Of a DNA stretch of 51,902 nucleotides, positions 18,681 to 51,747 are shown piece by piece. The DNA is taken from the sequence record DRR723986_6741; one strand, 5' to 3'. The position numbers and the translations under genes are program-made. The stretch's first letter is position 1. The number at the start of each line of letters is the position of its first letter. A model generated the notes under the pieces. The model ran no database searches. It was given only the letters and a program-made list of their open reading frames with translations, and was not told the DNA's origin.

Positions 18681-19376
18681 ATGAAAGTTCTTAAGTGGCT
18701 ATGGCGATTGGTTTGGAAAACGCTTATGTGGTTTTTCATTTTATCCGTGGGGTTGACTGTTCTCTATCGTTTCGTTCCTGTGCCACTCACACCATTAATG
18801 GTTATTAGAGTTTTTGAACAGGCATTTGATTCTGAAAAAGAGGTTCGTCTTCGGAAAGACTGGGTTCCATTTAGTGAAATATCCAAGAACGCACCCCAAG
18901 CTGTGTATGCATCGGAAGATCAAAAATTTCTTGACCATAATGGGTTTGATATTGAAGCGATGGAAAAGGCATGGGAAAACAACAAGAAAGGAAAGCGTGT
19001 AAAGGGAGCGAGTACCATTACCCAGCAGACAGTTAAAAATGTCTTTCTATGGCAATCGCGTAATTATTTAAGGAAAGGACTTGAGGCATATTTTACCGTG
19101 TTGGTAGAGCTAATTTGGCCTAAAGAGCGCATCATGGAAGTTTACCTGAATGTGATAGAGATGGGCGAGGGAATCTACGGTATTGAAGCTGCTTCTCAGG
19201 AGTTTTTCGATAAACCAGCAGCCAAACTAACCCGAAATCAGGCAGCCTTGATAGCTGCAGTTCTTCCTAATCCAAGAAGATGGTCGCCAGCCAGACCAAC
19301 CCCATATATCTTAGGGAGGCAAGTCTGGATTCTAAGGCAGATGAACAATCTTCCTCCAATTGGTATGGGAATATAA
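18681..19376 (+). CDS. mtgA: Monofunctional peptidoglycan transglycosylase
   Basis: SEDQKF..H.G, GASTITQQTVKN, RKGLE, EVYLN, AVLPNP. Confidence 0.95.
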   Translation: MKVLKWLWRLVWKTLMWFFILSVGLTVLYRFVPVPLTPLMVIRVFEQAFDSEKEVRLRKDWVPFSEISKNAPQAVYASEDQKFLDHNGFDIEAMEKAWENNKKGKRVKGASTITQQTVKNVFLWQSRNYLRKGLEAYFTVLVELIWPKERIMEVYLNVIEMGEGIYGIEAASQEFFDKPAAKLTRNQAALIAAVLPNPRRWSPARPTPYILGRQVWILRQMNNLPPIGMGI

Positions 19377-19624
19377 ACGTTGGATTTGTACTATTAAAAT
19401 AGGATTATTTGATGTAAAAGTTTGAGGGATTTCAATTTCTTGTTTTTGTACTCCTGTTTTTCTCAATTATTTAAAAGGAATTGAAGCCCTACAAAATTAT
19501 CTTTTAGCATTGATCGAAAATAGGTGTTTTCCAGGTTAAATTTTGGAGTTCAAACTTGTATCTATTTAATCATGCGATCCTTGTTTTTGGGCTCTATTTG
19601 AGGTTTAAAAAAAGCAAGTATTTT

Positions 19625-19789
19625 TTATCCACATTTTCGATAATTTATCCACACTTGTAAATATTCTATAGCTAACCGCCTGTAAAACAGCTAAATATAT
19701 AGAGTTTTTTAAAGGTAATTTTGTGGATAAAGCAGCCTAACTTGAAAAAATCAGTTAAAACACAGAGGTAAAAAAGTGGATAATCCACT
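19625..19789. promoter_or_regulatory. DnaA-box cluster (candidate oriC or DnaA titration site)
   Basis: TTATCCACA at 19625-19633 and 19645-19653; TGTGGATAA at 19722-19730; 1-mismatch AGTGGATAA at 19775-19783; AT-rich 438-bp gap between convergent genes. Confidence 0.7.
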
Positions 19790-19814
19790 CTTCCAAATAT
19801 TATTCTTAATTACG

Positions 19815-39754: not shown

Positions 39755-40885
39755 CTACTTGGTTCTCGACTTTACTTCATTGATTTTTGAGAAGTCAATT
39801 ATCGCATATGCCACGATATCGTCTGTCGTTTTGGTATAAAGATTTAAGGCATAACCTTGGGGCGTGTTAAACCCAAACTTGGCCAATTCTACAGTATTGA
39901 ATTTTATTTCTGCTTCTGGATTCAACTCTTGATCAAAAACTAAAAGGCGATACTCTTGCCTCTTTGGGTAATCTTCATTAGGTCCTTTTATTCTAACCCA
40001 CCGTAAGATTTTTTCAGCATAGGCATCCAAATCCAGTCCTTCATATTTACTGCTTTCATAATTTGGTTGAAATACAATGTATTCTCCACTCGGAATAGTG
40101 ATCCCTTTTTTGAATTCTAGGGGAGCCGTCGTTCCTGCCCATTTCCAACTTTGCTTTCCATTTTTTAGGATAGCTAAAGAGTCTGAGATAGAAAAACTTA
40201 TTAGATGCTCATTGGATTTAGGGTTATAAACATGGCTAAATAACCCCAACTGGTCATCGTCGGTGTACTCTGTTATAGATTGAGGGTAAAGAAATTGGTA
40301 ATTTGAAAAGCTATTTGTTTCCCTATTGAAAACCATTCCCCACTTATCATAGTCCACAAAATCCTCTTTAAAAACAAAGGGGATGTCGACAAAAAATAGC
40401 TCATTTCCTGATTTTTGGAGGTTATTGTGTACGATGCTTGAGTAGTTTGCATACCCTCTTTTGCTATCTACTTCAGGTAAATCCCATCTCCCAAGTACAT
40501 TTCCATTTAAATCAGCTTGAATCAATTCTTTCTGCTGTGATAGAAAGTAAATACTACTATGATCCATGAAATTGCCGGTGATAAAGGAACCTATACCATC
40601 TGGCCCTTCTTTTTCGAAAGATTGTCTTTTTAACAGTTTTCCTTTTGGATAGCTATAAATTAGTAATTCATGATTTAGATAGGTTGCCATTATTTTTCCT
40701 GAATCAGTATCGGAAAATGAAAAATAGGAGCCGAGATTTTTGGTCAATGTATCCTTCTCCAAATACAGGGTATCTACAATCAAATCCTTCAGATCAAGGA
40801 TCGGCATTTCTTTTTGAGACTTTGTGGAGCAAGAAATGCCAATAATACAGAAGGCGAAAAAAGTGAGTAATGTAAATCTTTTCAT
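39755..40885 (-). CDS. DUF4221-like lipoprotein
   Basis: Lipobox IGISC; FEKEGPDGIG motif; beta-rich. Confidence 0.7.
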   Translation of the reverse strand: MKRFTLLTFFAFCIIGISCSTKSQKEMPILDLKDLIVDTLYLEKDTLTKNLGSYFSFSDTDSGKIMATYLNHELLIYSYPKGKLLKRQSFEKEGPDGIGSFITGNFMDHSSIYFLSQQKELIQADLNGNVLGRWDLPEVDSKRGYANYSSIVHNNLQKSGNELFFVDIPFVFKEDFVDYDKWGMVFNRETNSFSNYQFLYPQSITEYTDDDQLGLFSHVYNPKSNEHLISFSISDSLAILKNGKQSWKWAGTTAPLEFKKGITIPSGEYIVFQPNYESSKYEGLDLDAYAEKILRWVRIKGPNEDYPKRQEYRLLVFDQELNPEAEIKFNTVELAKFGFNTPQGYALNLYTKTTDDIVAYAIIDFSKINEVKSRTK

Positions 40886-40935
40886 TAATGGGAGAAGGAA
40901 GTGTTTTGTAAATTAACTATTCCGGTATGAAAAAC

Positions 40936-42153
40936 TTACCGTTTAATAAATTGAAACTGATCCCATTGGTTTACAATAATCAGAGTAGGCTCATTATCCA
41001 CAAATCCATATTCTAATAGTAGTTTTTGCACCCTCAGCGAATGGGTGCCATTTTCAAGATTAGAGATATCTATTCCTGTTTGATATATTTTTTGCTTAGT
41101 GGTTCCGATTCTATGTTTCGACCAAGAATCTATTTTAACTAATTGCTCATCTATATAAACCCTATGAAGGTCTGCAGTTTCTTTAAGGGTTTTCCATCCC
41201 AGAGAATCTAACTCATTAGCAAAATCCGTATTCAATTGCTCAATTATTTTTCCATCTCCCTCATATCTGGCAATGCCTAACCTTAGATAGTCGTCACTGA
41301 TTTCTTCGGATGGAATAAAGGTTCTTGGATACCTAGTATTGAAATCATGTTCTGTTTCATAATGCAGATACTTGGCCGACCACTCCAATTCCTTTTCAAT
41401 TAATCCTCGATCATTATTATAAGTAGTGAAGTCCTGAGTATCAGATATAATAATAGGAGTAGAGAAAGCAAAAATCAAAAAAGCGTAAACTACAGCTAGC
41501 CATTTACCTATGTTACTTTGATATATGGCTGAAATAGAATTTAACATACTTTGAGTATACCATGTTTTGAGTTTAGTTTTCTTTTTGGCAAAAGTCAATG
41601 CCATGAAACCAATCATACTCACCATGAAAATCACATAAATGATAAAAAAATTGAGATCGAACCAGACGTAAATACCAATCAATAATCCTAGATAGACTGT
41701 AAAAGTCAGGAAAACCAACACTAGTGAAACCGGATAGGCGAATGTCATACTGCAGACTTTTTCTAACCGGAGCACCATATCTGCTGGCTTTTGGTATTCA
41801 TAGTCCTGAGCCATTTTGAACAGGTTCTTATTGATGACACCTTCGGGAAATGCATAACTAAGTCCTAAGAGTCCTGCCCACACAAATCGAAGGCAAAGAT
41901 GTACCACAAAAAATATCTTAAAAACTGAAACGACCGTGGTCAGATAAAAAAGAATCAACAAACTCGGAAAATACCCCACACCAATTTCCTGAATAAGGTA
42001 AACAGAGAACTCATAAATTTTCGCCGGGAAGACAAACAAAAATGCAAGGGTAATACCCGATATAATCACCTCCGGTTCCCAGCTATTCCGCTGGAGATTT
42101 TCGAGCCAAGTGAGCTCTTCCTGCTTTCGTTCGTAATCTGTGCTTTTATTCAT
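40936..42153 (-). CDS. Hypothetical membrane protein (about 5 TM helices plus C-terminal soluble domain)
   Basis: LQRNSWEPEVIISG N-terminus, HLCLRFVWAGLLGL, several TM helices, beta-rich C-terminus. Confidence 0.75.
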   Translation of the reverse strand: MNKSTDYERKQEELTWLENLQRNSWEPEVIISGITLAFLFVFPAKIYEFSVYLIQEIGVGYFPSLLILFYLTTVVSVFKIFFVVHLCLRFVWAGLLGLSYAFPEGVINKNLFKMAQDYEYQKPADMVLRLEKVCSMTFAYPVSLVLVFLTFTVYLGLLIGIYVWFDLNFFIIYVIFMVSMIGFMALTFAKKKTKLKTWYTQSMLNSISAIYQSNIGKWLAVVYAFLIFAFSTPIIISDTQDFTTYNNDRGLIEKELEWSAKYLHYETEHDFNTRYPRTFIPSEEISDDYLRLGIARYEGDGKIIEQLNTDFANELDSLGWKTLKETADLHRVYIDEQLVKIDSWSKHRIGTTKQKIYQTGIDISNLENGTHSLRVQKLLLEYGFVDNEPTLIIVNQWDQFQFIKR

Positions 42154-42190
42154 CTTTCAAAAAATACATTAGAAATTCGATTTATCTAAA

Positions 42191-42943
42191 TTATTGATCG
42201 AGCCAGCTTTTGAAATCCGATACTTTTTCCCGGCTTATTAAAATATCCTGATCCCGGCAATTTTTCAAAGTCACTTTCAAACGACTATTGGAATAGGAGA
42301 AAATTTCATCAATCCCTTCTAGGCTGCTCAGGTATTTTCGGTTTAACCGAAAGAATTTTACTGGGTCTACCTGGGATTCCGTTAGTTCTAAAGTGCTTTC
42401 CAACACGTATTTTTTTCCATCCAGTGTATGCAAAAAAGTAATTCGTTCTTCGCTGTTAAAATACAAAATATCATCCACTGGTATACTTTGAATCTTCTCT
42501 CCAAAGCGTACCAAAAACCGGGATTTGTAGGTTGATTTTGTTGGATTAAGTAGGGTTTTCAAGACATCCAATTCTATGGATGATCGGATTTGGTTACTTT
42601 TAAACTTATCCACAGCTCTAGCCAAATCATTTGGATCAATTGGCTTCAAAAGGTAGTCGATAGCGTTCACCTGAAAAGCTTTGATGGCATATTGGTCGAA
42701 TGCTGTAGTGAAAATAATTGGTGTGGATAAACTTATTTTTTCAAAAATTGAAAAGCTGATTCCATCTGCTAATTGTATATCGCTGAATATTAAATCTGGC
42801 TGATTATTTTGTTGAAACCACCGAACAGAATTAGAAACGCTGTCTAAATTTTCAATTATTTCAGCATCTGGAAAATGCCTCTTTATTTGCATTTTAAGCA
42901 GATTGGCAGCAGGTTTTTCGTCTTCTATAATCACTATTCTCAT
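42191..42943 (-). CDS. LytTR-family response regulator
   Basis: IIEDE, DLIFSDIQL.DG, IFTTAFD, DYLLKP; LytTR domain FFRLNRKY, ISREK. Confidence 0.95.
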   Translation of the reverse strand: MRIVIIEDEKPAANLLKMQIKRHFPDAEIIENLDSVSNSVRWFQQNNQPDLIFSDIQLADGISFSIFEKISLSTPIIFTTAFDQYAIKAFQVNAIDYLLKPIDPNDLARAVDKFKSNQIRSSIELDVLKTLLNPTKSTYKSRFLVRFGEKIQSIPVDDILYFNSEERITFLHTLDGKKYVLESTLELTESQVDPVKFFRLNRKYLSSLEGIDEIFSYSNSRLKVTLKNCRDQDILISREKVSDFKSWLDQ

Positions 42944-44013
42944 GTGGATAACTCTAAAATTGGCAGTTTGACCAAGAACTCATCTTCCGTCTGAATTACT
43001 TCCATATTTCTTTCAGAAAGGAGTTGATATCTCATTTTTATATTATTCAATCCTATTCCTGTTGATGGCTCAGTTTGGCTAGACTTAGGCTGAAAAGTAT
43101 TGCTAATCCATAAATCATTACCCTTTCTGTAGATGTGGATAAATAGTGGTTCACTTTGGCTCACAATATTATGTTTGATCGCATTTTCCAATAGAAGTTG
43201 GAGCGAAAGTGGTGGTATAAACCCGTTTTGATTCTCAATTTTTATCGAAAACTGTAAGCTTTCTTCAAATCTAATTTTCTGAAGTTCGAGATAATTTTTA
43301 GCAAAACTCTCTTCCTTTTCCAGCTCGATTAATTCCTCTTTTTGTGCTTCCAACACGTAGCGATATATACGGGATAGCTTCTGAATGAAAGCTGCAGATT
43401 TGTCTGCATTTTCATAAACTAAACTGGAAAGCACATTAAGCGAATTGAATAAAAAGTGGGGGTTCAATTGATCCTTCAAAGACTGATATTGACTTGCCAA
43501 TTTTTCGTTTCTAAGAATCTCGGCCTCGAGGGCTGACTTTCTCCATTCCAACAGCCATGATCGAGTAGTAAACAAAGCCATAAACCCCAATGCTATTCCC
43601 ATTGGCATCAGAGAATAGTTGAAGATCATCTTCCAAGGGATATTGTCAAGTGTAAAATTACCTTTGACCCAGGAATATATTCCTACAATGATGAATGAGA
43701 CCGAAAAGGCATAACTGAGATAAGTTACACTTGTTAGTATGAAACGTTTTGCAGGATGATGAATCCACGATATTCTTTTGTCATAAAAATTCTCGACAAC
43801 ATTACCGCCATAGCTCATCGCAATGGTAATACTTAAGGAGAAAAGGAAATCTGGTGCAAGGCTTTTAATTCCTTCCCAGCTTAAAAAACAACTTGGGCAG
43901 AAATACAACATCAGGACAGTTGCAATACCTAAGTTGATGACAAGAAAGCTTGGTAATGTACTCCAAATACCTCCTTTTGTTTTGCAGATTCCTTTATGGT
44001 CGATTTCTGACAT
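42940..44013 (-). CDS. LytS/YehU-family sensor histidine kinase
   Basis: About 4 TM helices; LKDQLNPHFLFNSLN; LQLLLENAIKHN; GIGLNNI; 4-nt overlap with the regulator. Confidence 0.95.
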   Translation of the reverse strand: MSEIDHKGICKTKGGIWSTLPSFLVINLGIATVLMLYFCPSCFLSWEGIKSLAPDFLFSLSITIAMSYGGNVVENFYDKRISWIHHPAKRFILTSVTYLSYAFSVSFIIVGIYSWVKGNFTLDNIPWKMIFNYSLMPMGIALGFMALFTTRSWLLEWRKSALEAEILRNEKLASQYQSLKDQLNPHFLFNSLNVLSSLVYENADKSAAFIQKLSRIYRYVLEAQKEELIELEKEESFAKNYLELQKIRFEESLQFSIKIENQNGFIPPLSLQLLLENAIKHNIVSQSEPLFIHIYRKGNDLWISNTFQPKSSQTEPSTGIGLNNIKMRYQLLSERNMEVIQTEDEFLVKLPILELST

Positions 44014-44028
44014 ATTGGGAAATTAATT

Positions 44029-44076
44029 AAAAAGCCTCAATTCCTTTCTGTGGTTGACGCAGAAAGAAATTAAGGC
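44029..44076 (-). terminator. Intra-cluster terminator-like hairpin
   Basis: Minus strand GCCTTAATTTCTTTCTG...CAGAAAGGAATTGAGGC then TTTTT; G-U pairs form only on the minus strand. Confidence 0.7.
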
Positions 44077-44089
44077 ATGTTTTCTTTGC

Positions 44090-44734
44090 TTAATTACATT
44101 TAGATGCGACCTGATCAGCTTGGGTTTTTCCCCAAGTAGGTAGGATATATTCTTCTGTGATTTTTGCTTGTTCTTTTTTGTAAAGCTCTAGGCTCATTCT
44201 AGCCATTCCGCATGCTTTTTCCGGTCCTGTTCCAAAGAACTGAGACATCCCTAGTTCCATTTGAGACATCAGAGAAACTGCTCTTGGATTCTCACGATCT
44301 AGGTTTATTGCTTTTCCAAAAAGTTGCATTGCTTCTGGGCTCATCGTCTGACCACGACCTGCAGGATCCAAAGATATTTTTCCCATTAAAATATATCCAT
44401 TAAGGGCGGTGATTTCGGAGTTTCCTGGAGCTATTTTTTCTGCTTTTTTGATTAATTCCAAAGCTTCGTCCAGACTTTTATCTTTATCAATATCGAATCG
44501 AAAAGCTGCTTCTGTTTTCAATAAAGCCGCATAATAGAATGGAAGCCATTCTGACTCGGCAGCCTCAGCAATTCTCATAAACCCATTAGTGACTTCCTGG
44601 GATTGTTCAAAGGTTTCAATTGTTGCTTTCGCAGCTAGTTGCTTTTGCATAGCTGCTATGAAAGCCGGATCAGCTGCTTGTGCTAAAGAAATTAATATAA
44701 AGGAAAGAGCGATGGTTAGGATTGATTTTTTCAT
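44090..44734 (-). CDS. Secreted TPR-like helical protein
   Basis: Signal peptide (AQA); FMRIA..EWLPFYYAA, NPRA, PTWG. Confidence 0.75.
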   Translation of the reverse strand: MKKSILTIALSFILISLAQAADPAFIAAMQKQLAAKATIETFEQSQEVTNGFMRIAEAAESEWLPFYYAALLKTEAAFRFDIDKDKSLDEALELIKKAEKIAPGNSEITALNGYILMGKISLDPAGRGQTMSPEAMQLFGKAINLDRENPRAVSLMSQMELGMSQFFGTGPEKACGMARMSLELYKKEQAKITEEYILPTWGKTQADQVASKCN

Positions 44735-44745
44735 GATTTTATGGA

Positions 44746-46905
44746 TTAAAGGTTGTTTAGATTATTTGCTGTTTTGTCTTTGGAAAGTGTGAGGAAAACT
44801 CCTAAAAATAGGAATCTAGGAGCGACTTGACCTTGAGGAATGGATTCAAATACACCTTGGGAATTCGTTTTTGGACTGTAGGTATAGCCGAAGACATTGT
44901 CTCTGCCCAAAACGTTGGAGCATGCAAGATGAATGATAAGGTTCGGTTTTGGTAAGTAGCTCCAGGATAAGCTTAGGTTTTGGAAGCTTTTGGTTTTGGC
45001 GTTCATATCTGAATTATCCAAGTTTGGGTTGGTGTAGCTGTAGCCATCATTGAAGGCAAATGAAGCTCCGATTTGAGATTTGAGGGGAACGATAAAATGC
45101 TTTATTACGACAGAGACATTATGCTTCGGAGCGAAACTTGGTTGAACTTGGGTTTCATATTGGTTGAAGCTTCTTTTGCTATCTACAAAGCTGTAGGTGA
45201 TCCAGTAGTCCGTATTTCGGAAGGTCTCACGATCTCTGAAAAAGAAATCAATTCCTCGGGCGTAGCCAGATCCATTAGTTGCGAGTTCTTTTGGATCGTC
45301 TGGCAACCCTTCAAATGTCACCAGCTGATCGTATGACTTGTAAAATGTTTCTGCTCTGAAGGTGAAGCCTTCTTTGGAAAACAGGTAGTTTAAAATCAAA
45401 TGATTTGATTCAGCATTTTCTAGATTGGTATTCAACACACGGAAGTTTTCCAAAGGCAATTGATGAAAGCTTCCTGTCGCAAAAGACAGCTGACCTTTAT
45501 CGCCGAGCTGATAAGCTACAGAGAATCTTGGATCCAACCATTTCTCATTAGATACCGAACTTGCGCCACCTCTCAAGCCTCCTCGAAATACAAGATCCTT
45601 ATTCAAATAGAAATCCCATTCAGTAAATAGATAGGTCTCATGATCTTTAAAGTCTCTCTTCCAACCTTCAGCAACCAACTTTTCTGAATAGGGGTGGATG
45701 AAATGCTCAACACCGAATTTTGCAGAAAGCCGATCGGAAAAGTCCTTGATTGCAGTTCCTTTGATATGAGCCAGTTCACTCTTGCGCTCGATGATTAAGC
45801 TATCATAGGCGATCTTGTCAAAATTATTGGAGTATGATATCCCTGTAAAAACCATCCAGTCATTTTTCAATGTTGTTCTCCAATTGGCCTGAGCATAGCT
45901 GTAATTATTTTTTAGATCTACCAAAACCAGCTTTTCAGTTCCTGGAAGTGGCTGCCAGAGGCTCATTCCTCCTGACTCAGTTCTTGCCATTATTTTAAGG
46001 AGTCCATTTTCTCCGGTTTTCTTTTGCGCAGCGACTTCCAAATCCCAGCCATTTGGAGCTTTTTCAAAATCAACTTCTTGCTTAATCAAACCTTGGTATG
46101 GTCCAAGATTGAAGTAGTTTGCACTTGCAGTGATGCTTTGCTTTTCATTGGCAAGTGTATGTGAATATCCTCCGCCGATAGTCATCAAGCTTAGGTCTCC
46201 TTGGCTTCTTTTTGAGAGGTCTTTTGTATTTAAAGCTAGGGCTGAGGAAAGTGCTTGACCATATTCAGCTGAATAGCCTCCGGTGCTAAAAAATGTTCCT
46301 TTAAATAGGTTAGGATTGAAGCGGGTGCGGGTCGGCACATTCCCGGCGGTGGTTCCATAGGCATTTCCTACACGCATTCCATCGATGTAGATCCCTACCT
46401 CGCTTGCATCTCCACCTCTTACGAATAGGCGACCATCATTTCCTACGGTGCTTGTGCCGGGAAGTGTCTGAAAAGCCCCCATGATATCGCCCATTGCACT
46501 TGGTGTAGTCACGATGTCGAGTGGCTTAAGGATTACAGATTTGCTTGCATCAGAAGCTTCCATTGCTCCGGCAGAGATTGTCACGGAGTTCATTTCGGTG
46601 ATCGCCTCAATTAATTCGATTGGCTGAACTTCATTGGAACCTTGTGCAATAGTAATCGCAAGCTCTTGTGTTTTGAAGCCAAGAAATTTGAAAACCAAAA
46701 CTTGAGCATCCCTTGCAGAAGTTTCGAACTGATAACTTCCATCTTGGCTACTAGTAGCTCCATCATAGCTTCCTTTGAGCTGGATGTTTGCTCCTAGCAG
46801 TGGTAATCCTTTTTCGTCCAGCACTTTTCCTCGGATAGTTGCTTGCGCAAAAGCTTGAGTTTGCAAAAGAAGAAAGGCGATAAAAAGTAAAAGTCGTGGA
46901 TTCAT
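44746..46905 (-). CDS. TonB-dependent receptor
   Basis: Signal peptide; CarboxypepD_reg-like N-domain; TLPG, LFVRGG, IDG; plug end STGGYSAEYGQALSS; beta-barrel. Confidence 0.92.
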   Translation of the reverse strand: MNPRLLLFIAFLLLQTQAFAQATIRGKVLDEKGLPLLGANIQLKGSYDGATSSQDGSYQFETSARDAQVLVFKFLGFKTQELAITIAQGSNEVQPIELIEAITEMNSVTISAGAMEASDASKSVILKPLDIVTTPSAMGDIMGAFQTLPGTSTVGNDGRLFVRGGDASEVGIYIDGMRVGNAYGTTAGNVPTRTRFNPNLFKGTFFSTGGYSAEYGQALSSALALNTKDLSKRSQGDLSLMTIGGGYSHTLANEKQSITASANYFNLGPYQGLIKQEVDFEKAPNGWDLEVAAQKKTGENGLLKIMARTESGGMSLWQPLPGTEKLVLVDLKNNYSYAQANWRTTLKNDWMVFTGISYSNNFDKIAYDSLIIERKSELAHIKGTAIKDFSDRLSAKFGVEHFIHPYSEKLVAEGWKRDFKDHETYLFTEWDFYLNKDLVFRGGLRGGASSVSNEKWLDPRFSVAYQLGDKGQLSFATGSFHQLPLENFRVLNTNLENAESNHLILNYLFSKEGFTFRAETFYKSYDQLVTFEGLPDDPKELATNGSGYARGIDFFFRDRETFRNTDYWITYSFVDSKRSFNQYETQVQPSFAPKHNVSVVIKHFIVPLKSQIGASFAFNDGYSYTNPNLDNSDMNAKTKSFQNLSLSWSYLPKPNLIIHLACSNVLGRDNVFGYTYSPKTNSQGVFESIPQGQVAPRFLFLGVFLTLSKDKTANNLNNL

Positions 46906-46962
46906 TTCGATTTAGATTTGAATCAAAAGTGCACGACTTGTCCTGTTGAAAAAATTAAAGCT

Positions 46963-47010
46963 GACTGAAGTGTAGCAATTGGCGACTGAAGTGTAAAAAT
47001 GTAAGACTGA
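46963..47010 (-). promoter_or_regulatory. LytTR-type operator: three direct repeats with 21-bp period
   Basis: GACTGAAGTGTA at 46963 and 46984, GACTGA at 47005; -7-like CACTTTTG (minus) at 46924-46931. Confidence 0.75.
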
Positions 47011-47083
47011 GTAAAATCCTCAGAAATGCAAAATAGTAGGAAAACAACTTGTGGTCACCTTGAAATTCAATTTGGGACACATG

Positions 47084-47122
47084 ATCTGTTGAAAACCTGG
47101 CATTACCAGGCTTTCAACAGAT
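47084..47122. terminator. Long hairpin downstream of the M14 peptidase gene (terminator or REP-like)
   Basis: ATCTGTTGAAA-A-CCTGG-CATTA-CCAGG-C-TTTCAACAGAT; no clear U-tract. Confidence 0.5.
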
Positions 47123-47173
47123 TGTAGTCATTTATACAAAATGATAGCTATAAGTAATTATAAGGTGGTTTTA

Positions 47174-48973
47174 CTACCATTCTCTTCCTACAGGAATTAC
47201 TTTCCAGTTTTGGTCGAAATAAGGAGTTTGCTTATAGAACCAGGAATAAATGGTTCTAGGGGATTTTGCAAAGTCTGGATTTGAAGCTTTTTCTTCCTCA
47301 AATAGCATTTTCAAATCTGCATCTTCGGATAGCATCTTAGCGATCAAAGGCTCCATAATGTAGGTTTCCATGTATTCTGTCTGAGAAAATATCGAATTGA
47401 AATATCCCCACTGAAAAAAGCTATCCACAGATTCTGGCTCGAGCAAAATCACAGCAAGTTCACCGAGAGCTTGATCAGTAGGTACCCTTACAGATCCAGG
47501 ATTTAAAGTCAGCTTTCGGTATGTTTTATCCAATTCAAATCTTTGCACCCGCATTAATCCTTCATATGGCTGATTTCCCATGGAAAAACTGGTGACTGTG
47601 GATAACTCGACATTCACTTCTCTTGCTTCATTAATGGTTTCAAATTGAATTCCATGTTGTTTTAGCTTTGTGATTACATCTGTCCATTCTACTGGAACCC
47701 AGTAAGCTTTTGGAACTGAAACCGACAGCTCAGGCACATCCATGAAAATGCTAGGGACTGACTGGGTCACAGGTTTTCCTTCCCACTTCACATATTCTGC
47801 TCCAGTTATTTCGGATTTTACTTTTGAAGAAGCTATTCCAAGAAATTTCATTGAATCAGCCGGGGTATCCCGGAATTTGAATTTGACCGGAATAGACTCT
47901 TTCGGTTGATTGGAATCAGATTCGACTGCTTTTTGTAGTGCAGCATAATGATTCCCCAGAGATTTGATCGCTTGCTCTAAAAACACATAAGTGCCTAAAA
48001 CACGCTGCTCGAATGGTTTCAGTGAGTGATTTTCAATCAGGATAGAAGCCATGTGTCGGATATCACCATAGGTATGAGAGAATCGTGGACTGAAGGAAAA
48101 AGCGACATTTCCCGCAGAGAAATCATTGCCATTTGCTGCGAATAGCAAGGGGCCGGGAATGTGTCCTTGGTCCTTTAAGGCTTGATCTACTTCTGGCTGA
48201 AATTTGGTAGAAAGCCAAGATGAAATTTCCGGGGAATATCCGCCAGTGGCTACGTAGCCGTAAGTAATGTCATATTGATAGTCTGCCCCGTCAGTGACAT
48301 GGATGTCAATGTATAAATCAGGATCGTAGCTGTTGATAACTTCTGTCACAGCTTGTATTCCTGCAGTCTCCAACTTGGTATAATCTCTATTCAGATTGAG
48401 ATTTACGGCGTTTGTTCTCCAGCCCATTTCTTTAGGACCTCGCTGATTTACTCTCCCATATTCACTTCTTCTTTCATGACCGTCAACATTTAGAATTGGA
48501 ATGAAAAGTAGGTTGGCGTTATCTAATAAGCCTATTTTGCTCCCTTGGCTAATATCTCTAAGCAACATCATACCCGCATCTTTTCCATCTATTTCGCCTG
48601 CATGAATTCCTGCTTGAAAGAAAATCAGAGGTTTGGATGATGTGGATAATTTATCTGAACTGAATTCCTTATTCTTTGAACCAATCACAAGTTTAATCGG
48701 TCTTCCTTGTTCGCTTATACCTGCAGTGACTAGCTCGAGATATTCAGAGTTTGCGACTAATTTCTCTATCCATGCCATTGTTTCGGCATAAGTAGGCGAT
48801 TCTAATCCATCGGAAAGCTCAAAAGGAGTAACCCATTTTGCAGACTTATCCACAAGCAATTCTTTGCTATTACCATTCCAGGGAATAGTTGGAGGCATGA
48901 TATCTTGTGCAAAAATGAAGGTTGGTGTAGCGAAAAGAAGGAGAGCCAGAACTAGATGCTGAAGTAATTTCAT
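47174..48973 (-). CDS. Secreted M14-family zinc carboxypeptidase
   Basis: GIHAGE (HxxE), NVDG, NLNRD, DIH; signal peptide. Confidence 0.9.
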   Translation of the reverse strand: MKLLQHLVLALLLFATPTFIFAQDIMPPTIPWNGNSKELLVDKSAKWVTPFELSDGLESPTYAETMAWIEKLVANSEYLELVTAGISEQGRPIKLVIGSKNKEFSSDKLSTSSKPLIFFQAGIHAGEIDGKDAGMMLLRDISQGSKIGLLDNANLLFIPILNVDGHERRSEYGRVNQRGPKEMGWRTNAVNLNLNRDYTKLETAGIQAVTEVINSYDPDLYIDIHVTDGADYQYDITYGYVATGGYSPEISSWLSTKFQPEVDQALKDQGHIPGPLLFAANGNDFSAGNVAFSFSPRFSHTYGDIRHMASILIENHSLKPFEQRVLGTYVFLEQAIKSLGNHYAALQKAVESDSNQPKESIPVKFKFRDTPADSMKFLGIASSKVKSEITGAEYVKWEGKPVTQSVPSIFMDVPELSVSVPKAYWVPVEWTDVITKLKQHGIQFETINEAREVNVELSTVTSFSMGNQPYEGLMRVQRFELDKTYRKLTLNPGSVRVPTDQALGELAVILLEPESVDSFFQWGYFNSIFSQTEYMETYIMEPLIAKMLSEDADLKMLFEEEKASNPDFAKSPRTIYSWFYKQTPYFDQNWKVIPVGREW

Positions 48974-49215
48974 GTTTGGTGGTTGTTTGCTTAAATATCG
49001 GAAGTACTTCGATAGTAGCGAATCATTTTTAGTTAAAAAGCCAATTGTTCATTTAAACGCACAGAAGCCCAGTCTGAAATGGACTAGCCCCCAAAAGAAG
49101 ACCGGGCTTAGGGATTTTCAGTCGCTTACTGAGTGCTAATTCATAGGAAACACAAACGGCAGCACTTGGATATTTTTTGCTCAAATGCCCACTTGACTAA
49201 TCTATTCGCTCTGTC

Positions 49216-51747
49216 TTACTGTCCTACCATAAAGATCGCGTTACTCAAAATCAGTTTACCAGACTCCCAGAAACCTCTGAAAATTGGATCATCCACGAAG
49301 TAAACAATTTCTCCACGGCCAGCTCTCTCTACTCCTATTGCCAGTGACTCACCCATGCTGGATTTGATTTTAAATCCAATATAACCGGTTCTGTACGCAT
49401 CGTTATTTGCAATTATTCCGGCATTTGCTCCATTGCTTAGGTAGGTGAATTTGTTAGAATTGTTTTTAAGGGCATAGTATTTCCCACCAGTTCCATAGCC
49501 GAGTGGATGAGTTTCATCCATCGTTATTTGGTAAATTGCCCCGGCTGTTCCTCTTGAAATTGCCACACGTTCACCCTCTTGGTAGGGAGTTAACCGCTCT
49601 GCTTTTGCTAAGGAATCCAGTTTCTTTTTTGCAGCTTTTTTCTCATCATCACTATCGAAAGTCTTCAGATCAAAGCCCTCTTTGTCCGCGAATAAATTCA
49701 AAGCACCATCGATGGCAATTAGTTTTCCTCCGCCTCGAACCCATTGCATTACGTTTTCTTCAGCTGATTTGCTCAATCCTCCACCACGCATGGAAGGCAT
49801 GATGAGCACTGTGTATTTATTTAGGTCGTAGCGACCCATATTATCTAGTTCCAGATTTACCAGTGGATAATTCAGGTCTTTTTCGAAGAAATGCCATAGT
49901 GCACCGTAGTTCAGCGAATTTGTTCCTTCTCCGCCTACTAGCGCTACTTTTGGTGCTTGGATTACGCGGATATTAGGCGAGCCAAAGTCTTTTCCTTTAT
50001 CCACATAGCCGCTCATGGTGGTAGCAAGCGTCACCCCAAATTTATTGGCGATCTCAATTACCTTTTGGTCGAAATTCGGCACATACTCATTGCCTCCTTT
50101 GGTAATCATCAGAGATCCAGCGGAGAAGCTTTTTCCTTCTACTTCAAAAGGAAACTCATTGTATTTAACACGAATATCTGCCTTGAGTAAGGCTGATAGG
50201 AATGCCACATCATTGGTTCCTTGCCAAGAGGCAATGTATGCGACCGGAGTTTTGCCGGCCACATTTGCAGAAAAGGCAGGTTTCTCGTATTCTCCTGCTG
50301 CGTTCACACGGGTTTCTAAGGCATACGCCTCCAATCCGTAAGCATACGGCATGGACCAGCTTGTGATGTCATAAGTGATACTGTCATTTAAAACTGGATT
50401 TGGCTCAAATAATAGTTGCGTCAAAACTGCTTTTGGCTGGTAAGCATTGATGATAATGTCTTCCTCGCTTGTAGAGAAAGATTCACTTTTCCCAGAAGTA
50501 TAGGATAAGCCTTTCAAACCAGATTTAGCTCCTGCCTTTCCATAGGTGATTTTATTTTTATCCAGAAGTTCAAGCAGCTTGGCTACCTGGGCAGGATTGC
50601 TTTCTCCCTTGATTACAAAGCTTTTGTATTGGCCTTTTGGAGATGAAGAGTTTTCATCGAAGAATTTCTCAAACTCGGAAAGTAATTTTTCAGCGTTTTT
50701 GCTGGTTACTTCTGCAGCCGACATCGCTGCGGTATAGTGGCCTTGAATTCTGTAGCTCAATGTCACCGTGTCTCCTACAGCATCAAATCCGCCAACTCCA
50801 GCTTGACCGCCACCACCTTGCTCGATAGTCATGCCGATAGCTCCGTTGAACATCGGATAAGAATCCCCATAGGATGGGTAAAGTAGATCGAAACGCTCCT
50901 TGGTGAAATAAAACCTTCCCACTTCATCGAAGTATTTGGCAGTGTTTCTACCAAAAGTATCCTGAAACTCGTGCTGCCACTCAGTCAACTGCTCATGAAG
51001 TGGTTCGGCAGCTGGTGCCATGTAAAAGGGATTGTTGATGCCTTGCTCGTGGAAATCCAAATGAAGCTGAGGCATCCACTGGTTGTAAAGCTTCATTCTA
51101 GCTTGAGATTCTACTTGAACTTGCCATGCCCAATCTCGATTCAAATCAAATAAGTAGTGATTTGCACGTCCGCCCGGCCAAGGTTCATTATGCTCTACAG
51201 ATTGCAAATCAGGCTGAAGGGTAGTGTTCATTTTCTGATTGTACCAATTGGAGTAGCGATCGCGACCATCAGGGTTGATACATGGATCTATAATGACCAC
51301 CTGATTTTTCAACCATTCTTGTGACTTGGCATTTTCAGGATTTGCTAAGGTGTAAAAAGAAGAAATCGCAGCTTCCATGCCTACAGACTCGTTTCCATGC
51401 ACGTTGAAAGACATCCAGTTGATCGGAACAGAGGTAGAAGGATCGCCTTCAAGCATTCCTGTTCTCTTCAGGTTATCGGTTCGTATTTGTTCCAGATTGG
51501 CCATGTTTTCCGAACTCGAAAGAATAGCCACAATCAGCGGACGCTTTTCGTTTGTTTCGCCGTATTGGATGAGTTTCACATTTGGATTATTAGCTGCTAC
51601 ATGCTCAAAATAGTCAACCATGCGGTGATGAGGAGTGAAGCGATCACCGGGTTTGTAGCCCAAAAACTGCTCAGGGGTCTGAATTTGAGCCCATGAACTA
51701 ATGGTGTTCGAAAAAATGAATAATGATAAGAGTAAGAGTTTTTTCAT
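49216..51747 (-). CDS. Secreted M14-family zinc carboxypeptidase with C-terminal GATase-like domain
   Basis: VHGNE, NPDG, DLNRD, DFHE; C-terminal WVRGGGKLIAI; signal peptide. Confidence 0.9.
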   Translation of the reverse strand: MKKLLLLSLFIFSNTISSWAQIQTPEQFLGYKPGDRFTPHHRMVDYFEHVAANNPNVKLIQYGETNEKRPLIVAILSSSENMANLEQIRTDNLKRTGMLEGDPSTSVPINWMSFNVHGNESVGMEAAISSFYTLANPENAKSQEWLKNQVVIIDPCINPDGRDRYSNWYNQKMNTTLQPDLQSVEHNEPWPGGRANHYLFDLNRDWAWQVQVESQARMKLYNQWMPQLHLDFHEQGINNPFYMAPAAEPLHEQLTEWQHEFQDTFGRNTAKYFDEVGRFYFTKERFDLLYPSYGDSYPMFNGAIGMTIEQGGGGQAGVGGFDAVGDTVTLSYRIQGHYTAAMSAAEVTSKNAEKLLSEFEKFFDENSSSPKGQYKSFVIKGESNPAQVAKLLELLDKNKITYGKAGAKSGLKGLSYTSGKSESFSTSEEDIIINAYQPKAVLTQLLFEPNPVLNDSITYDITSWSMPYAYGLEAYALETRVNAAGEYEKPAFSANVAGKTPVAYIASWQGTNDVAFLSALLKADIRVKYNEFPFEVEGKSFSAGSLMITKGGNEYVPNFDQKVIEIANKFGVTLATTMSGYVDKGKDFGSPNIRVIQAPKVALVGGEGTNSLNYGALWHFFEKDLNYPLVNLELDNMGRYDLNKYTVLIMPSMRGGGLSKSAEENVMQWVRGGGKLIAIDGALNLFADKEGFDLKTFDSDDEKKAAKKKLDSLAKAERLTPYQEGERVAISRGTAGAIYQITMDETHPLGYGTGGKYYALKNNSNKFTYLSNGANAGIIANNDAYRTGYIGFKIKSSMGESLAIGVERAGRGEIVYFVDDPIFRGFWESGKLILSNAIFMVGQ

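What the first reader, a model, noticed from the sequence alone, without database searches (positions are those of the whole stretch)
40994..50005. Nine perfect DnaA boxes written into coding sequence over 9 kb: a dispersed, codon-encoded DnaA-binding array
Seen: TTATCCACA at 40994, 42606, 48846 and 49997, and its reverse complement TGTGGATAA at 42722, 42943, 43134, 47597 and 48641. All lie inside ORFs and span five genes. By eye I found no perfect copy in coding DNA in the first 40 kb. They occur in both orientations and three registers: xVD(K/N), LST and FIHI. All four Leu-Ser-Thr tripeptides I see in this segment use exactly TTA-TCC-ACA, while LST in gltD, gldE and the Spy-like gene uses other codons. 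Assuming about 40% GC (judged by eye), a rough i.i.d. expectation is about 0.1 copy in 9 kb on both strands. Established: TTATCCACA is the high-affinity DnaA box, and E. coli datA and B. subtilis DnaA-box clusters titrate or inactivate DnaA. Inference: synonymous codon choice is selected here to build an origin-proximal DnaA reservoir, an arrangement I do not know to be described in Bacteroidota.
Basis: partly seen in the sequence, partly recalled or inferred. Interest (0 to 1): 0.8.

Follow-up and report, generated by a model that had tools for sequence, protein, structure and literature searches.

The report
DnaA boxes written into genes near oriC
Nine exact copies of the binding word for the replication initiator DnaA are built into the coding sequence of five genes about 100 kb from the replication origin of an Algoriphagus bacterium, they are kept across species against synonymous drift, and they probably help to buffer free DnaA.

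Summary
All nine TTATCCACA copies sit at the stated coordinates inside five ORFs. A synonymous-codon shuffle gives a mean of 0.7 and never 9 (0 of 2000). Nine of the 11 places where these proteins permit a box carry one, against 0 of 10 in the first 40.9 kb of the window.

The organism is an Algoriphagus (Bacteroidota). In the near-identical genome G001 the array lies 94-103 kb from a conserved oriC candidate.

It is the densest cluster of a genus-wide field. In four genomes, perfect boxes concentrate within about 300-400 kb of oriC, roughly 90% of them inside ORFs.

Individual boxes persist in species where only 41-62% of synonymous codons match. At one site the tripeptide itself follows the box.

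Orthologous loci 103-161 kb from oriC keep 2-13 boxes (14 genomes). One nested clade whose locus lies 347-402 kb away has none (4 genomes, one evolutionary event).

DNA-level selection and origin proximity are shown here. DnaA binding and titration are inferred. I class this as a new variant of the known origin-proximal DnaA-box clusters.

The parts
40994..41002 (+). Perfect DnaA box in ORF 40936-42153(-). It encodes F-V-D-N (aa 384-387) and reads TGTGGATAA on the coding strand.
   Evidence: This looks like a recent gain: only 1 of 8 orthologues has it.
42606..42614 (+). Perfect DnaA box in the LytTR response-regulator gene, encoding A-V-D-K (aa 110-113).
   Evidence: It is kept in 8 of 12 orthologues, which is all 8 that have the AVDK peptide.
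42722..42730 (-). Perfect DnaA box in the LytTR response-regulator gene, encoding L-S-T (aa 72-74).
   Evidence: It is kept in 7 of 12 orthologues, which is 7 of the 10 that have LST.
42943..42951 (-). Perfect DnaA box formed by the last three codons (L-S-T) of the histidine-kinase gene. Its last base is the A of the regulator's ATG.
   Evidence: It is exact in 8 of 14 orthologues and reads TTATACACA in 2 more. In L090 the HK end reads TYPH... and still spells the box word in another reading frame (one search lists boxes in that locus).
43134..43142 (-). Perfect DnaA box in the histidine-kinase gene, encoding F-I-H-I (aa 291-294) in register 1.
   Evidence: It is kept in 10 of 14 orthologues, which is all 10 with FIHI. 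The other 4 have FIKI or FIQI.
47597..47605 (-). Perfect DnaA box in M14 peptidase gene 47174-48973, encoding L-S-T (aa 457-459).
   Evidence: Only the two closest relatives have it (2 of 33 orthologues, one of them gapped at this site), so it is a recent gain.
48641..48649 (-). Perfect DnaA box in M14 peptidase gene 47174-48973, encoding L-S-T (aa 109-111).
   Evidence: It is kept in 21 of 33 orthologues. Of the 22 orthologues with LST, 21 use exactly TTATCCACA. Species without the box have LKA, FAK, LAN, LAK, IKN and similar at this position.
48846..48854 (+). Perfect DnaA box in M14 peptidase gene 47174-48973, encoding L-V-D-K (aa 40-43).
   Evidence: It is present in 11 of 33 orthologues, including ones whose peptide is IVDK, IVDN or LVDN.
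49997..50005 (+). Perfect DnaA box in M14 peptidase gene 49216-51747, encoding Y-V-D-K (aa 581-584).
   Evidence: It is present in 2 of 17 orthologues. It is polymorphic within the species: G001 has TTGTCCACA here, a synonymous GAT/GAC change.
40936..51747 (-). The block of seven co-oriented ORFs that carries the array: a 405-aa ORF with no Pfam hit, the LytTR regulator, the His_kinase, a TPR protein, a TonB-dependent-receptor-like protein, and two M14 peptidases. The TPR and TonB-like genes carry no box and also have no place where their protein would permit one.
19625..19730 (.). A related intergenic DnaA-box cluster. It has three perfect boxes (19625+, 19645+, 19722-) and an imperfect palindromic pair near 19776-19790. 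It lies between a transglycosylase gene (18681-19376+) and a ClC channel gene (19815-21593-).
   Evidence: The same three boxes, with spacings of 20 and 77 bp, occur in G001, G002, G003 and G004. The boxes and their A/T-rich flanks align with A. halophytocola.

Best explanation
The nine 9-mers are high-affinity DnaA boxes that selection has written into, and keeps in, coding DNA. They form the densest patch of a genus-wide field of several dozen perfect boxes within roughly 300-400 kb of oriC in Algoriphagus.

Most likely mechanism: each box binds one DnaA molecule, in either the ATP or the ADP form, as perfect consensus boxes do in model bacteria. Because the field lies close to oriC, its copy number doubles soon after each initiation. 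That draws down free DnaA and delays re-initiation. This is initiator titration, and it occurs in a lineage where I found no Hda, SeqA or YabA.

Shown here: non-random excess, DNA-level purifying selection, origin proximity, specificity for the exact 9-mer, and a canonical DnaA that is the only protein with domain IV in these genomes.

Inferred: that DnaA occupies these sites in vivo, and that the net effect on initiation is negative (titration).

The confidence given is for the whole statement, including titration. That these are selected DnaA-binding sites I hold at about 0.85.
For: 1. Excess. There are 12 boxes in the window against 0.44 expected. Nine lie in seven CDS, against a mean of 0.71 and a maximum of 4 in 2000 synonymous shuffles. 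Nine of 11 protein-permitted sites are realised, against 0 of 10 in the rest of the window (Fisher p = 2e-4). Background codon usage predicts 0.7% for TTA-TCC-ACA.

2. Conservation. M14 LST109 is a perfect box in 21 of 33 orthologues, HK FIHI in 10 of 14 and RR AVDK in 8 of 12, while synonymous-codon identity to the window is only 0.36-0.62. Among 4139 non-box 9-nt windows with an identical peptide, the mean fraction with an identical 9-mer is 0.145 and the 99th percentile is 0.857. The four oldest boxes score 0.70-1.0.

3. Both orientations and three registers occur, there is no extended flank motif, and no strand bias relative to replication: 22 boxes in co-directional ORFs against 19 in head-on ORFs.

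4. Origin proximity. The window equals G001 C2:52233-104133 at 99.17% identity. The oriC candidate at C2:156830-157234 has 7 boxes with at most one mismatch. Its homologue in the complete A. halophytocola genome has 9 boxes in 400 bp at the cumulative GC-skew minimum. The same spacer has 5-11 such boxes in 23 of 23 Algoriphagus genomes.

5. The field. In G002, 56 of the 100 listed boxes (107 in total) lie in 2.854-3.558 Mb, around oriC at 3.154 Mb. Similar zones exist in G001, G003 and G004. Realised over permitted sites in G001 are 29 of 112 at 50-300 kb from oriC against 3 of 116 beyond 300 kb.

6. Specificity. The perfect word occurs 80 times in 957 kb of zone against 18 times in 1123 kb outside it. 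Most of the 27 single-mismatch variants have a ratio near 1.

7. Relocation. Loci 103-161 kb from oriC carry 2-13 boxes (14 genomes). Loci 347-402 kb away carry 0 (4 genomes).

8. The binder. DnaA is canonical, with domain IV reading GGRDHSTVIHA. There is one PF00308 hit in G001 and one PF08299 hit per genome in 6 of 6. No SeqA and no YabA were found in G001 or G002.

9. Box-bearing genes elsewhere in the zone are functionally unrelated: ileS, an SNF2 helicase, glycosyltransferases, MoaA/MoaC, PurK, a MutS-domain-V protein and a type III PKS.

10. Okumura et al. 2011 (PMC3245932, passages read) showed that oriC-proximal DnaA-box clusters restrain initiation in B. subtilis, and predicted such clusters in bacteria that lack SeqA and Hda.
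Against: There are no binding data.

The boxes are mostly more than 100 bp apart, so cooperative DnaA filaments of the oriC or datA kind are unlikely. In B. subtilis a strong in-vitro site inside the rplB ORF was not detectably bound in vivo (PMC4447404, passages read), so transcription might clear such sites.

The 50 kb nearest oriC are not the richest part of the field: 2 of 34 permitted sites are realised in G001 and 5 of 30 in G002.

The relocation-and-loss pattern rests on a single clade, which means one event. That tree is a quick single-gene tree, because the careful search did not finish.

The G002 samples more than 1 Mb from oriC show 10 of 101 permitted sites realised, so the background is not negligible.

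Nine of G002's zone boxes come from one 321-bp tandem repeat. They arose by duplication, not by independent selection.

The window's own genome is not held, so origin distance is inferred from G001. G001 contig C2 has an anomalous skew stretch at 200-420 kb.
Confidence: 0.55

Rival explanations
1. The boxes do bind DnaA, but their net role is positive or architectural. They might hold a local pool of DnaA next to oriC, which would matter because dnaA itself lies about 1 Mb away. Or they might help organise or segregate the origin region. In this reading they do not act as a sink that delays re-initiation.
For: The sequence evidence is the same as for the main reading. In addition, dnaA lies about 1 Mb from oriC in G002, G003 and G004. 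In B. subtilis, removing the clusters together with spo0J gave an additional phenotype (abstract of PMC3245932). The field spans both sides of oriC.
Against: In the only systems tested, B. subtilis DBCs and E. coli datA, extra boxes restrain initiation (passages of PMC3245932). Nothing in the sequence separates a sink from a pool.
Confidence: 0.2
2. DnaA acts here as a transcription factor or a roadblock. The boxes would couple expression of the two-component system and the peptidases to replication status.
For: One box overlaps the HK stop codon and the RR start codon. Four boxes lie within 540 bp across the HK-RR junction. DnaA is a known transcription factor in other bacteria (abstract of PMC4447404).
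Against: Boxes occur in unrelated genes throughout the zone. Their presence tracks distance from oriC, not gene identity: the same M14 genes have no box in the clade where they lie about 350-400 kb away. Individual boxes turn over, with recent gains at 40994, 47597 and 49997. There is no preferred orientation relative to the gene.
Confidence: 0.1
3. Some other origin-region DNA-binding protein, not DnaA, reads the 9-mer. In that case the match to the DnaA box would be coincidental.
For: No binding data exist. Other origin-proximal, codon-embedded sites such as parS are known (recalled, not from a call).
Against: The word is exactly the DnaA consensus. The organism's own oriC candidate is built from the same word and its one-mismatch variants in 23 of 23 genomes. 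DnaA domain IV is conserved and is unique in each genome. The word is not a palindrome, so it is unlike parS, whose consensus I give from memory.
Confidence: 0.05
4. The pattern is chance, shared ancestry, local composition or repeated DNA, and nothing is selected.
For: The 40-44 kb stretch has lower GC, 0.355-0.364. Related species share ancestry.
Against: None of 100 dinucleotide shuffles and none of 2000 codon shuffles reach the observed count. The flanks of the copies are unrelated. The boxes persist where only 36-62% of synonymous codons are unchanged. The reversed control word is not enriched: 0-1 per locus in these 15 box-rich loci, against 5-14 boxes in the 15 full-length Algoriphagus loci that are box-rich.
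Confidence: 0.01

Closest known systems
oriC-proximal DnaA-box clusters (DBCs) of Bacillus subtilis (Ishikawa 2007, PMC2533591, abstract only; Okumura 2011, PMC3245932, passages read)
   Same: Both are DnaA boxes outside oriC, concentrated near the origin, in a bacterium without SeqA or Hda. The B. subtilis clusters were shown to restrain initiation in a position-dependent way. The authors predicted such clusters in other bacteria that lack SeqA and Hda.
   Different: The six B. subtilis clusters are compact and intergenic, and some double as promoter regulators. Here about 90% of the boxes are inside ORFs, they are mostly single and more than 100 bp apart, there are several dozen of them spread over hundreds of kilobases, and only the exact consensus is enriched.
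E. coli datA
   Same: Both are non-oriC loci with several high-affinity DnaA boxes a few hundred kilobases from oriC. datA negatively regulates initiation (as described in passages of PMC3245932, and the abstract of PMC4585315).
   Different: datA is a non-coding locus with five high-affinity boxes. Its compact size and its action through IHF-dependent DnaA-ATP hydrolysis are recalled, apart from a cited title that names IHF at datA. The array here spans 9 kb of coding DNA, and I did not search for an IHF site.
Initiator-titration model, with dispersed chromosomal DnaA boxes in E. coli (Hansen, Christensen and Atlung; recalled, not read here)
   Same: The idea is the same: many single high-affinity boxes spread along the chromosome, mostly within genes, buffer free DnaA, and their replication resets the initiation potential.
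   Different: As far as I recall, the E. coli boxes are spread around the chromosome without marked origin clustering or demonstrated codon-level selection. Here the boxes are confined to the origin-proximal 15% of the chromosome and are conserved against synonymous drift.
Streptomyces DnaA-box cluster near oriC (Smulczyk-Krawczyszyn 2006; I saw it only as reference 40 of PMC3245932, and its content is recalled)
   Same: Both are extra clusters of DnaA boxes outside oriC that are proposed to regulate replication.
   Different: It is a single cluster in a different phylum. I could not check whether it lies in coding DNA.
parS, Noc-binding and SlmA-binding sites (recalled)
   Same: This is an analogy only. 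These are regional fields of protein-binding words that are embedded in coding sequence and positioned relative to the origin.
   Different: They involve different proteins, different words and different functions (segregation and nucleoid occlusion).

Membership tests
High-affinity DnaA box | Exact match to the 9-bp consensus TTATCCACA | tested here: met
   Nine exact matches in the array and 12 in the window.
High-affinity DnaA box | The organism's own origin is built from the same word | tested here: met
   The oriC candidate has 9 boxes with at most one mismatch in 400 bp at the GC-skew minimum of G002. There are 5-11 such boxes in the homologous spacer in 23 of 23 Algoriphagus genomes. 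The window's own genome is not held, so this is inferred from G001 at 99.17% identity.
High-affinity DnaA box | A DnaA with a conserved DNA-binding domain IV is present | tested here: met
   The 474-aa DnaA of G001 aligns end to end with B. subtilis DnaA (8btg, E = 7e-114). Domain IV reads GGRDHSTVIHA against GGRDHTTVIHA. There is one domain-IV gene per genome in 6 of 6 genomes.
High-affinity DnaA box | DnaA occupies the site in vitro or in vivo | not testable with these tools
   This needs EMSA, ChIP-seq or IDAP-seq.
oriC-proximal DnaA-box cluster (B. subtilis DBC type) | Several boxes outside oriC, close to the origin | tested here: met
   Nine boxes lie 94-103 kb from the oriC candidate, about 2% of a 5-Mb genome.
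oriC-proximal DnaA-box cluster (B. subtilis DBC type) | Compact intergenic cluster | tested here: not met
   All nine boxes are inside ORFs and spread over 9 kb. The closest four span 540 bp. The separate triple box at 19625-19730 does meet this feature.
oriC-proximal DnaA-box cluster (B. subtilis DBC type) | Deletion advances initiation | not testable with these tools
   This needs genetics and flow cytometry or marker-frequency analysis.
E. coli datA-type DnaA-inactivating locus | Compact non-coding locus with an essential IHF site between the boxes (feature recalled) | tested here: not met
   The compact, non-coding layout is not met. I did not search for an IHF site.
oriC | Intergenic box cluster at the GC-skew switch | tested here: not met
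   The array is in coding DNA. The skew minimum and the densest cluster of boxes with at most one mismatch lie elsewhere, at G002 3.1536 Mb and G001 C2:157 kb.
parS (ParB centromere site) | 16-bp palindrome of the TGTTNCACGTGAAACA type (consensus recalled) | tested here: not met
   The conserved unit is the non-palindromic 9-mer, with no conserved flanks.

The most novel reading that the evidence does not exclude
Algoriphagus, and judging from box excesses in many other genera of its family, part of the Cyclobacteriaceae, times replication mainly through a chromosomal titration field. This field is several dozen exact-consensus DnaA boxes encoded inside ordinary genes within roughly 300-400 kb of oriC.

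Selection to maintain the field is strong enough to fix codons, and even amino acids, in unrelated proteins. Boxes are replaced by new ones elsewhere when genes move away from the origin.

This would be a natural, codon-embedded implementation of the initiator-titration model in a phylum that has none of the known DnaA regulators (Hda, SeqA, YabA).
Probability: 0.4. Interest if true: 0.75.

Novelty: new variant of a known kind. Interest (0 to 1): 0.65.

Why it matters
How bacteria outside the model groups prevent re-initiation is largely unknown. The initiator-titration idea is still debated because E. coli has several overlapping controls.

Here comparative sequence evidence alone shows that a lineage has paid a measurable cost in codons and amino acids across dozens of unrelated genes. 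That cost keeps exact DnaA boxes near its origin, in genomes where Hda, SeqA and YabA were not found.

This gives a clean natural system for testing titration. The sites can be recoded without changing the proteins.

It is also a clear case of a non-coding function constraining protein sequence. That matters for codon-usage models, for annotation, and for oriC prediction in Bacteroidota, because here dnaA lies about 1 Mb from oriC.

Tried and rejected
1. I asked for the window's own genome, but none is held. I used the 99.17%-identical G001 instead.

2. The first codon-shuffle script timed out. I re-ran a faster version.

3. From GC skew and ORF strand alone I first placed the G001 origin at C2 about 400-420 kb. 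I rejected that after three results:
- The complete A. halophytocola genome put the skew minimum at 3.14-3.15 Mb.
- The densest cluster of boxes with at most one mismatch sits at 3.1536 Mb.
- Its G001 homologue is at C2:157 kb.
G001 C2 200-420 kb has an unexplained negative skew, and the oriC segment is inverted between G001 and G002.

4. I rejected an extended motif or repeated element. The flanks of 74 unique box contexts show no conservation beyond a weak A at position -2.

5. I rejected relaxed boxes of the TTATNCACA type as the selected unit. Position-5 variants are not enriched in the zone.

6. I found no strand or replication-direction bias.

7. Outside the genus, a Bacteroidia chromosome (26 boxes against 49 control, no cluster) and Pseudochryseolinea (55 against 33, weak clustering) do not show the strong pattern. 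A one-genome-per-genus survey of 61 genera in the family gave ratios from below 0.5 to about 3.9, but totals alone cannot show clustering.

9. Four genomes (G070, G078, G083, G085/G086 type cases) had oriC and the M14 locus on different contigs, so they gave no distance.

10. I ran no structure prediction, complex prediction or read mapping, because none bears on the question.

Full report
**1. The observation**

It also finds three unlisted intergenic copies at 19625, 19645 and 19722. That is 12 in 51.9 kb, against 0.44 expected. None of 100 dinucleotide-preserving shuffles reached 12.

All nine array copies lie in ORFs on the - strand. By Pfam the ORFs are:
- a 405-aa protein without a family (40936-42153)
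- a LytTR response regulator (42191-42943)
- a His_kinase (42940-44013)
- two M14 peptidases (47174-48973 and 49216-51747)

A TPR protein and a TonB-dependent-receptor-like protein lie between them and carry no box.

The boxes occur in both orientations and in three registers: LST, FIHI and xVD(K/N). The word is the commonest 9-mer both of the segment (9 copies, next 4) and of the whole window (12 copies, next 11). Its flanks share nothing, so the 9-mer itself is the unit.

The array ORFs hold five LST tripeptides. Four use TTA-TCC-ACA and one uses CTT-TCT-ACC.

**2. Is it more than codon usage allows?**

I shuffled synonymous codons within each of the seven genes. This keeps the box codons in the pool and is therefore conservative. 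It gives a mean of 0.71 boxes and a maximum of 4. None of 2000 shuffles reached 9.

I then listed every place where the protein sequence would permit a box in any register or orientation. The array genes have 11 such places and 9 are realised. ORFs in window 1-40.9 kb have 10 such places and none is realised (Fisher p = 2.2e-4).

Background codon usage predicts 0.7% for TTA-TCC-ACA. Permitted places are also about four times denser in the array genes than in the rest of the window. That is a first hint that amino acids have been shaped as well as codons.

**3. Whose genome, and where is the origin?**

The window's own assembly is not held. The window aligns end to end with G001 contig C2:52233-104133, reversed, at 99.17% identity (428 mismatches and 1 gap in 51,902 columns). 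Relatives found with the M14 protein name the genus as Algoriphagus (Cyclobacteriaceae, Bacteroidota).

In the complete genome of A. halophytocola (G002), sampled and then contiguous GC skew puts the cumulative minimum at 3.14-3.15 Mb and the opposite switch near 0.8 Mb. The densest cluster of boxes with at most one mismatch in 3.0-3.5 Mb is 9 boxes in 400 bp at 3,153,614-3,154,018.

Its homologue in G001 is the 460-bp spacer C2:156,773-157,235, with 7 such boxes. It lies between an AMP-binding-enzyme gene and a Big_5-domain gene. The same spacer carries 5-11 such boxes in 23 of 23 Algoriphagus genomes examined. I take this to be oriC.

The array therefore lies 94-103 kb from oriC in G001 and about 137-143 kb from it in G002.

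My first estimate, from G001 skew alone, was C2 about 410 kb. It was wrong or at best ambiguous. That contig has an unexplained negative-skew stretch at 200-420 kb.

**4. The array is part of a field**

- G001 has 82 boxes against 56 of the reversed control word. Thirty-nine are on C2, and 35 of those lie between 43 and 438 kb.
- G002 has 107 against 47. Of the 100 listed places, 56 lie in 2.854-3.558 Mb, which is 15% of the chromosome, centred on oriC. The 7 unlisted places follow 4.15 Mb if the list is ordered, as it appears to be. Nine of the 56 belong to one 321-bp tandem repeat, so they are duplicates rather than independent sites.
- A. formosus (G003) has 74 against 45, with a zone at 0.88-1.54 Mb around oriC at 1.168 Mb. 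It includes 18 boxes in 14 kb.
- A. halophilus (G004) has 71 against 54, with a zone at 2.62-3.32 Mb around oriC at 3.021 Mb.

About 90% of zone boxes lie inside ORFs: 34 of 39 on G001 C2 and 41 of 45 in G002 3.0-3.5 Mb.

| Realised over permitted sites | Count |
|---|---|
| G001, 50-300 kb from oriC | 29 of 112 |
| G001, beyond 300 kb | 3 of 116 |
| G001, nearest 50 kb | 2 of 34 |
| G002, contiguous 3.0-3.5 Mb | 41 of 156 |
| G002 samples, 400-1000 kb away | 2 of 54 |
| G002 samples, beyond 1 Mb | 10 of 101 |

The G001 comparison of 29 of 112 against 3 of 116 gives Fisher p = 2e-7.

The enrichment is specific to the exact word: 80 in 957 kb of zone against 18 in 1123 kb outside. The 27 single-mismatch variants mostly have a ratio near 1, including the position-5 variants of the relaxed TTATNCACA consensus.

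Box-bearing genes elsewhere in the zone are functionally unrelated. They include ileS, an SNF2 helicase, glycosyltransferases, a polysaccharide exporter, TatD, MoaA, MoaC, PurK, a MutS-domain-V protein, a type III polyketide synthase and a methyltransferase. There is no bias for co-directional or head-on genes (22 against 19 boxes).

**5. Conservation against synonymous drift**

I built codon alignments of the five array genes with orthologues from 8 to 33 Algoriphagus-group loci. Amino-acid identity to the window is 53-95% and synonymous-codon identity is only 0.34-0.62.

| Site | Orthologues with a perfect box | Note |
|---|---|---|
| M14 LST109 | 21 of 33 | 21 of the 22 with LST use exactly TTATCCACA |
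| HK FIHI | 10 of 14 | all 10 with FIHI |
| RR AVDK | 8 of 12 | all 8 with AVDK |
| RR LST | 7 of 12 | |
| HK C-terminal LST | 8 of 14 | 2 more read TTATACACA |

In L090 the end of the kinase reads TYPH... and still spells the box word in a different reading frame.

For comparison, among 4139 non-box 9-nt windows whose peptide is identical in at least five orthologues, the mean fraction with an identical 9-mer is 0.145 and the 99th percentile is 0.857.

Where the box is absent, the peptide differs. M14 aa 109 reads LKA, FAK, LAN, LAK or IKN, and HK reads FIKI or FIQI. So the DNA word appears to dictate the amino acids, not only the codons.

Other boxes are young:
- 40994 is present in 1 of 8 orthologues.
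- 47597 is present in 2 of 33.
- 49997 is present in 2 of 17, and is polymorphic within the species, because G001 has the synonymous TTGTCCACA.

The picture is a mix of long-held sites and turnover.

**6.

For 18 genomes, the M14 locus and the oriC homologue lie on the same contig.

- In 14 of them the M14 gene is 103-161 kb from oriC, and the locus (gene plus or minus 10 kb) holds 2-13 perfect boxes.
- In 4 of them (A. formosus, sp. CAU 1675, A. zhangzhouensis and sp. PAP.12) it is 347-402 kb away and holds none.
- The reversed control word occurs 0-1 times per locus in these.

On a quick maximum-likelihood tree of the M14 protein, the box-free loci form one well-supported clade (9 rows, SH-aLRT 100) nested among box-bearing lineages. 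The careful search did not finish, this is a single gene, and the root is a midpoint root.

The pattern fits loss after relocation away from the origin, but it is one evolutionary event and not four. A. formosus, the one genome of that clade whose boxes were mapped, still has an origin-proximal field, carried by other genes.

**7. Who reads the word?**

G001 encodes one canonical DnaA of 474 aa. It aligns end to end with B. subtilis DnaA (8btg, E = 7e-114). Domain IV reads GGRDHSTVIHA against GGRDHTTVIHA. My assignment of base-contacting residues is recalled, not tested.

There is one PF00308 match in G001, so no Hda paralogue. There is one PF08299 match per genome in 6 of 6 genomes. No SeqA or YabA match was found in G001 (99% complete) or G002, with positive controls ringing.

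The organism's own oriC is built from the same word, so DnaA is by far the most likely reader.

**8. Mechanism**

The best-supported reading is a field of independent high-affinity DnaA sites near the origin. Its copy number doubles early in each round of replication, and it buffers free DnaA. This is initiator titration.

The closest experimental precedent is B. subtilis. There, six intergenic clusters, generally located around oriC with one exception (yqeG-sda), restrain initiation in a position-dependent manner. The authors predicted similar clusters in bacteria without SeqA and Hda (PMC3245932, passages read).

Several points count against the reading or remain open:
- No binding data exist.
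- The sites are mostly more than 100 bp apart.
- A strong in-vitro site inside the B. subtilis rplB ORF was not detectably bound in vivo (PMC4447404, passages read).
- The 50 kb nearest oriC are not the richest part of the field.

A positive "local pool" or origin-organising role cannot be separated from a sink by sequence. The transcription-factor reading fits poorly with the unrelated gene functions and with the dependence on position.

**9. Comparison and novelty**

The kind is known: extra DnaA boxes near the origin, such as datA, the DBCs and the titration boxes.

What is new here:
- The boxes are embedded in coding DNA.
- They are dispersed over hundreds of kilobases.
- Only the exact consensus is enriched.
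- They are kept against synonymous, and even non-synonymous, drift across a genus.
- They occur in Bacteroidota.

Full-text searches of the held library returned no description of this. The searches were: "DnaA box clusters/titration/oriC-proximal", "DnaA boxes/coding regions/overrepresented/origin", "DnaA box/Bacteroidetes/oriC", "DnaA boxes/within genes/synonymous/titration", "DnaA boxes/distribution/enriched/near oriC/genomes" and "Algoriphagus/DnaA". The library omits most subscription journals, and I read no supplements, so an earlier description elsewhere cannot be excluded.

Outside the genus the strong pattern was not seen in two genomes. Across 61 genera of the family, box-to-control ratios range from below 0.5 to about 3.9, which suggests that some other genera share the feature.

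**Verdict**

I class it as a new variant of a known kind.

Noticed in passing
window 19377-19814 (boxes at 19625, 19645, 19722; imperfect palindromic pair near 19776-19790): This is a compact intergenic DnaA-box cluster between a transglycosylase gene and a ClC-channel gene, about 72 kb from the oriC candidate in G001. The three perfect boxes, with identical spacing of 20 and 77 bp, recur in G001, G002, G003 and G004. The boxes and their A/T-rich flanks align with A. halophytocola while the sequence between them diverges. It resembles a B. subtilis-type DBC or a DnaA-regulated promoter.
   Followed up: partly
G001 C2:156773-157235; G002 3,153,614-3,154,018; loci L202-L226: The Algoriphagus oriC candidate lies in the spacer between an AMP-binding-enzyme gene and a Big_5-domain gene. 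It is built mostly of one-mismatch boxes, with 0-2 perfect boxes among 5-11 per genome. dnaA is about 1 Mb away: G002 2.134 against 3.154 Mb, G004 3.962 against 3.021 Mb, and G003 0.031 against 1.168 Mb on one contig. So oriC prediction based on dnaA would fail in this genus.
   Followed up: partly
G002 (A. halophytocola) 3,438,239-3,440,486: Eight perfect boxes at an exact 321-bp period, with a further box 204 bp upstream at 3,438,035 that I counted with them as nine, all on one strand, inside long + strand ORF sequence. This is a tandem protein repeat in which each unit carries a box. I did not identify the gene.
   Followed up: no
G003 (A. formosus) C10:1,287,403-1,301,391: There are 18 perfect boxes in 14 kb, about 120-130 kb from that genome's oriC candidate. 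This cluster is twice as dense as the array studied here. I did not fetch the sequence.
   Followed up: no
G001 C2 200-420 kb, and C2:155.5-158.7 kb against G002: GC skew and ORF strand bias are negative across C2 200-420 kb, although this stretch lies to the right of the oriC candidate. The oriC segment itself is inverted between G001 and G002, while the array keeps its orientation. This could be a recent inversion or an assembly join. It misled my first origin estimate.
   Followed up: partly
window 49997-50005 against G001 C2:54,130: This box is polymorphic within the species. The window has TTATCCACA and G001 has TTGTCCACA, a synonymous Asp GAT/GAC change on the coding strand.
   Followed up: yes
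window 40001-44000: GC content drops to 0.355-0.364 here, against about 0.40 elsewhere in the window. The stretch covers the DUF4221 gene's neighbour, the no-Pfam ORF and the HK-RR pair.
   Followed up: no
G001 C5:161,219-169,449: A second cluster of six perfect boxes in 8 kb lies on another contig. It sits in genes for an FAD oxidoreductase, a type III PKS, a methyltransferase, a MutS-domain-V protein and PurK. The position of contig C5 relative to oriC is unknown.
   Followed up: partly
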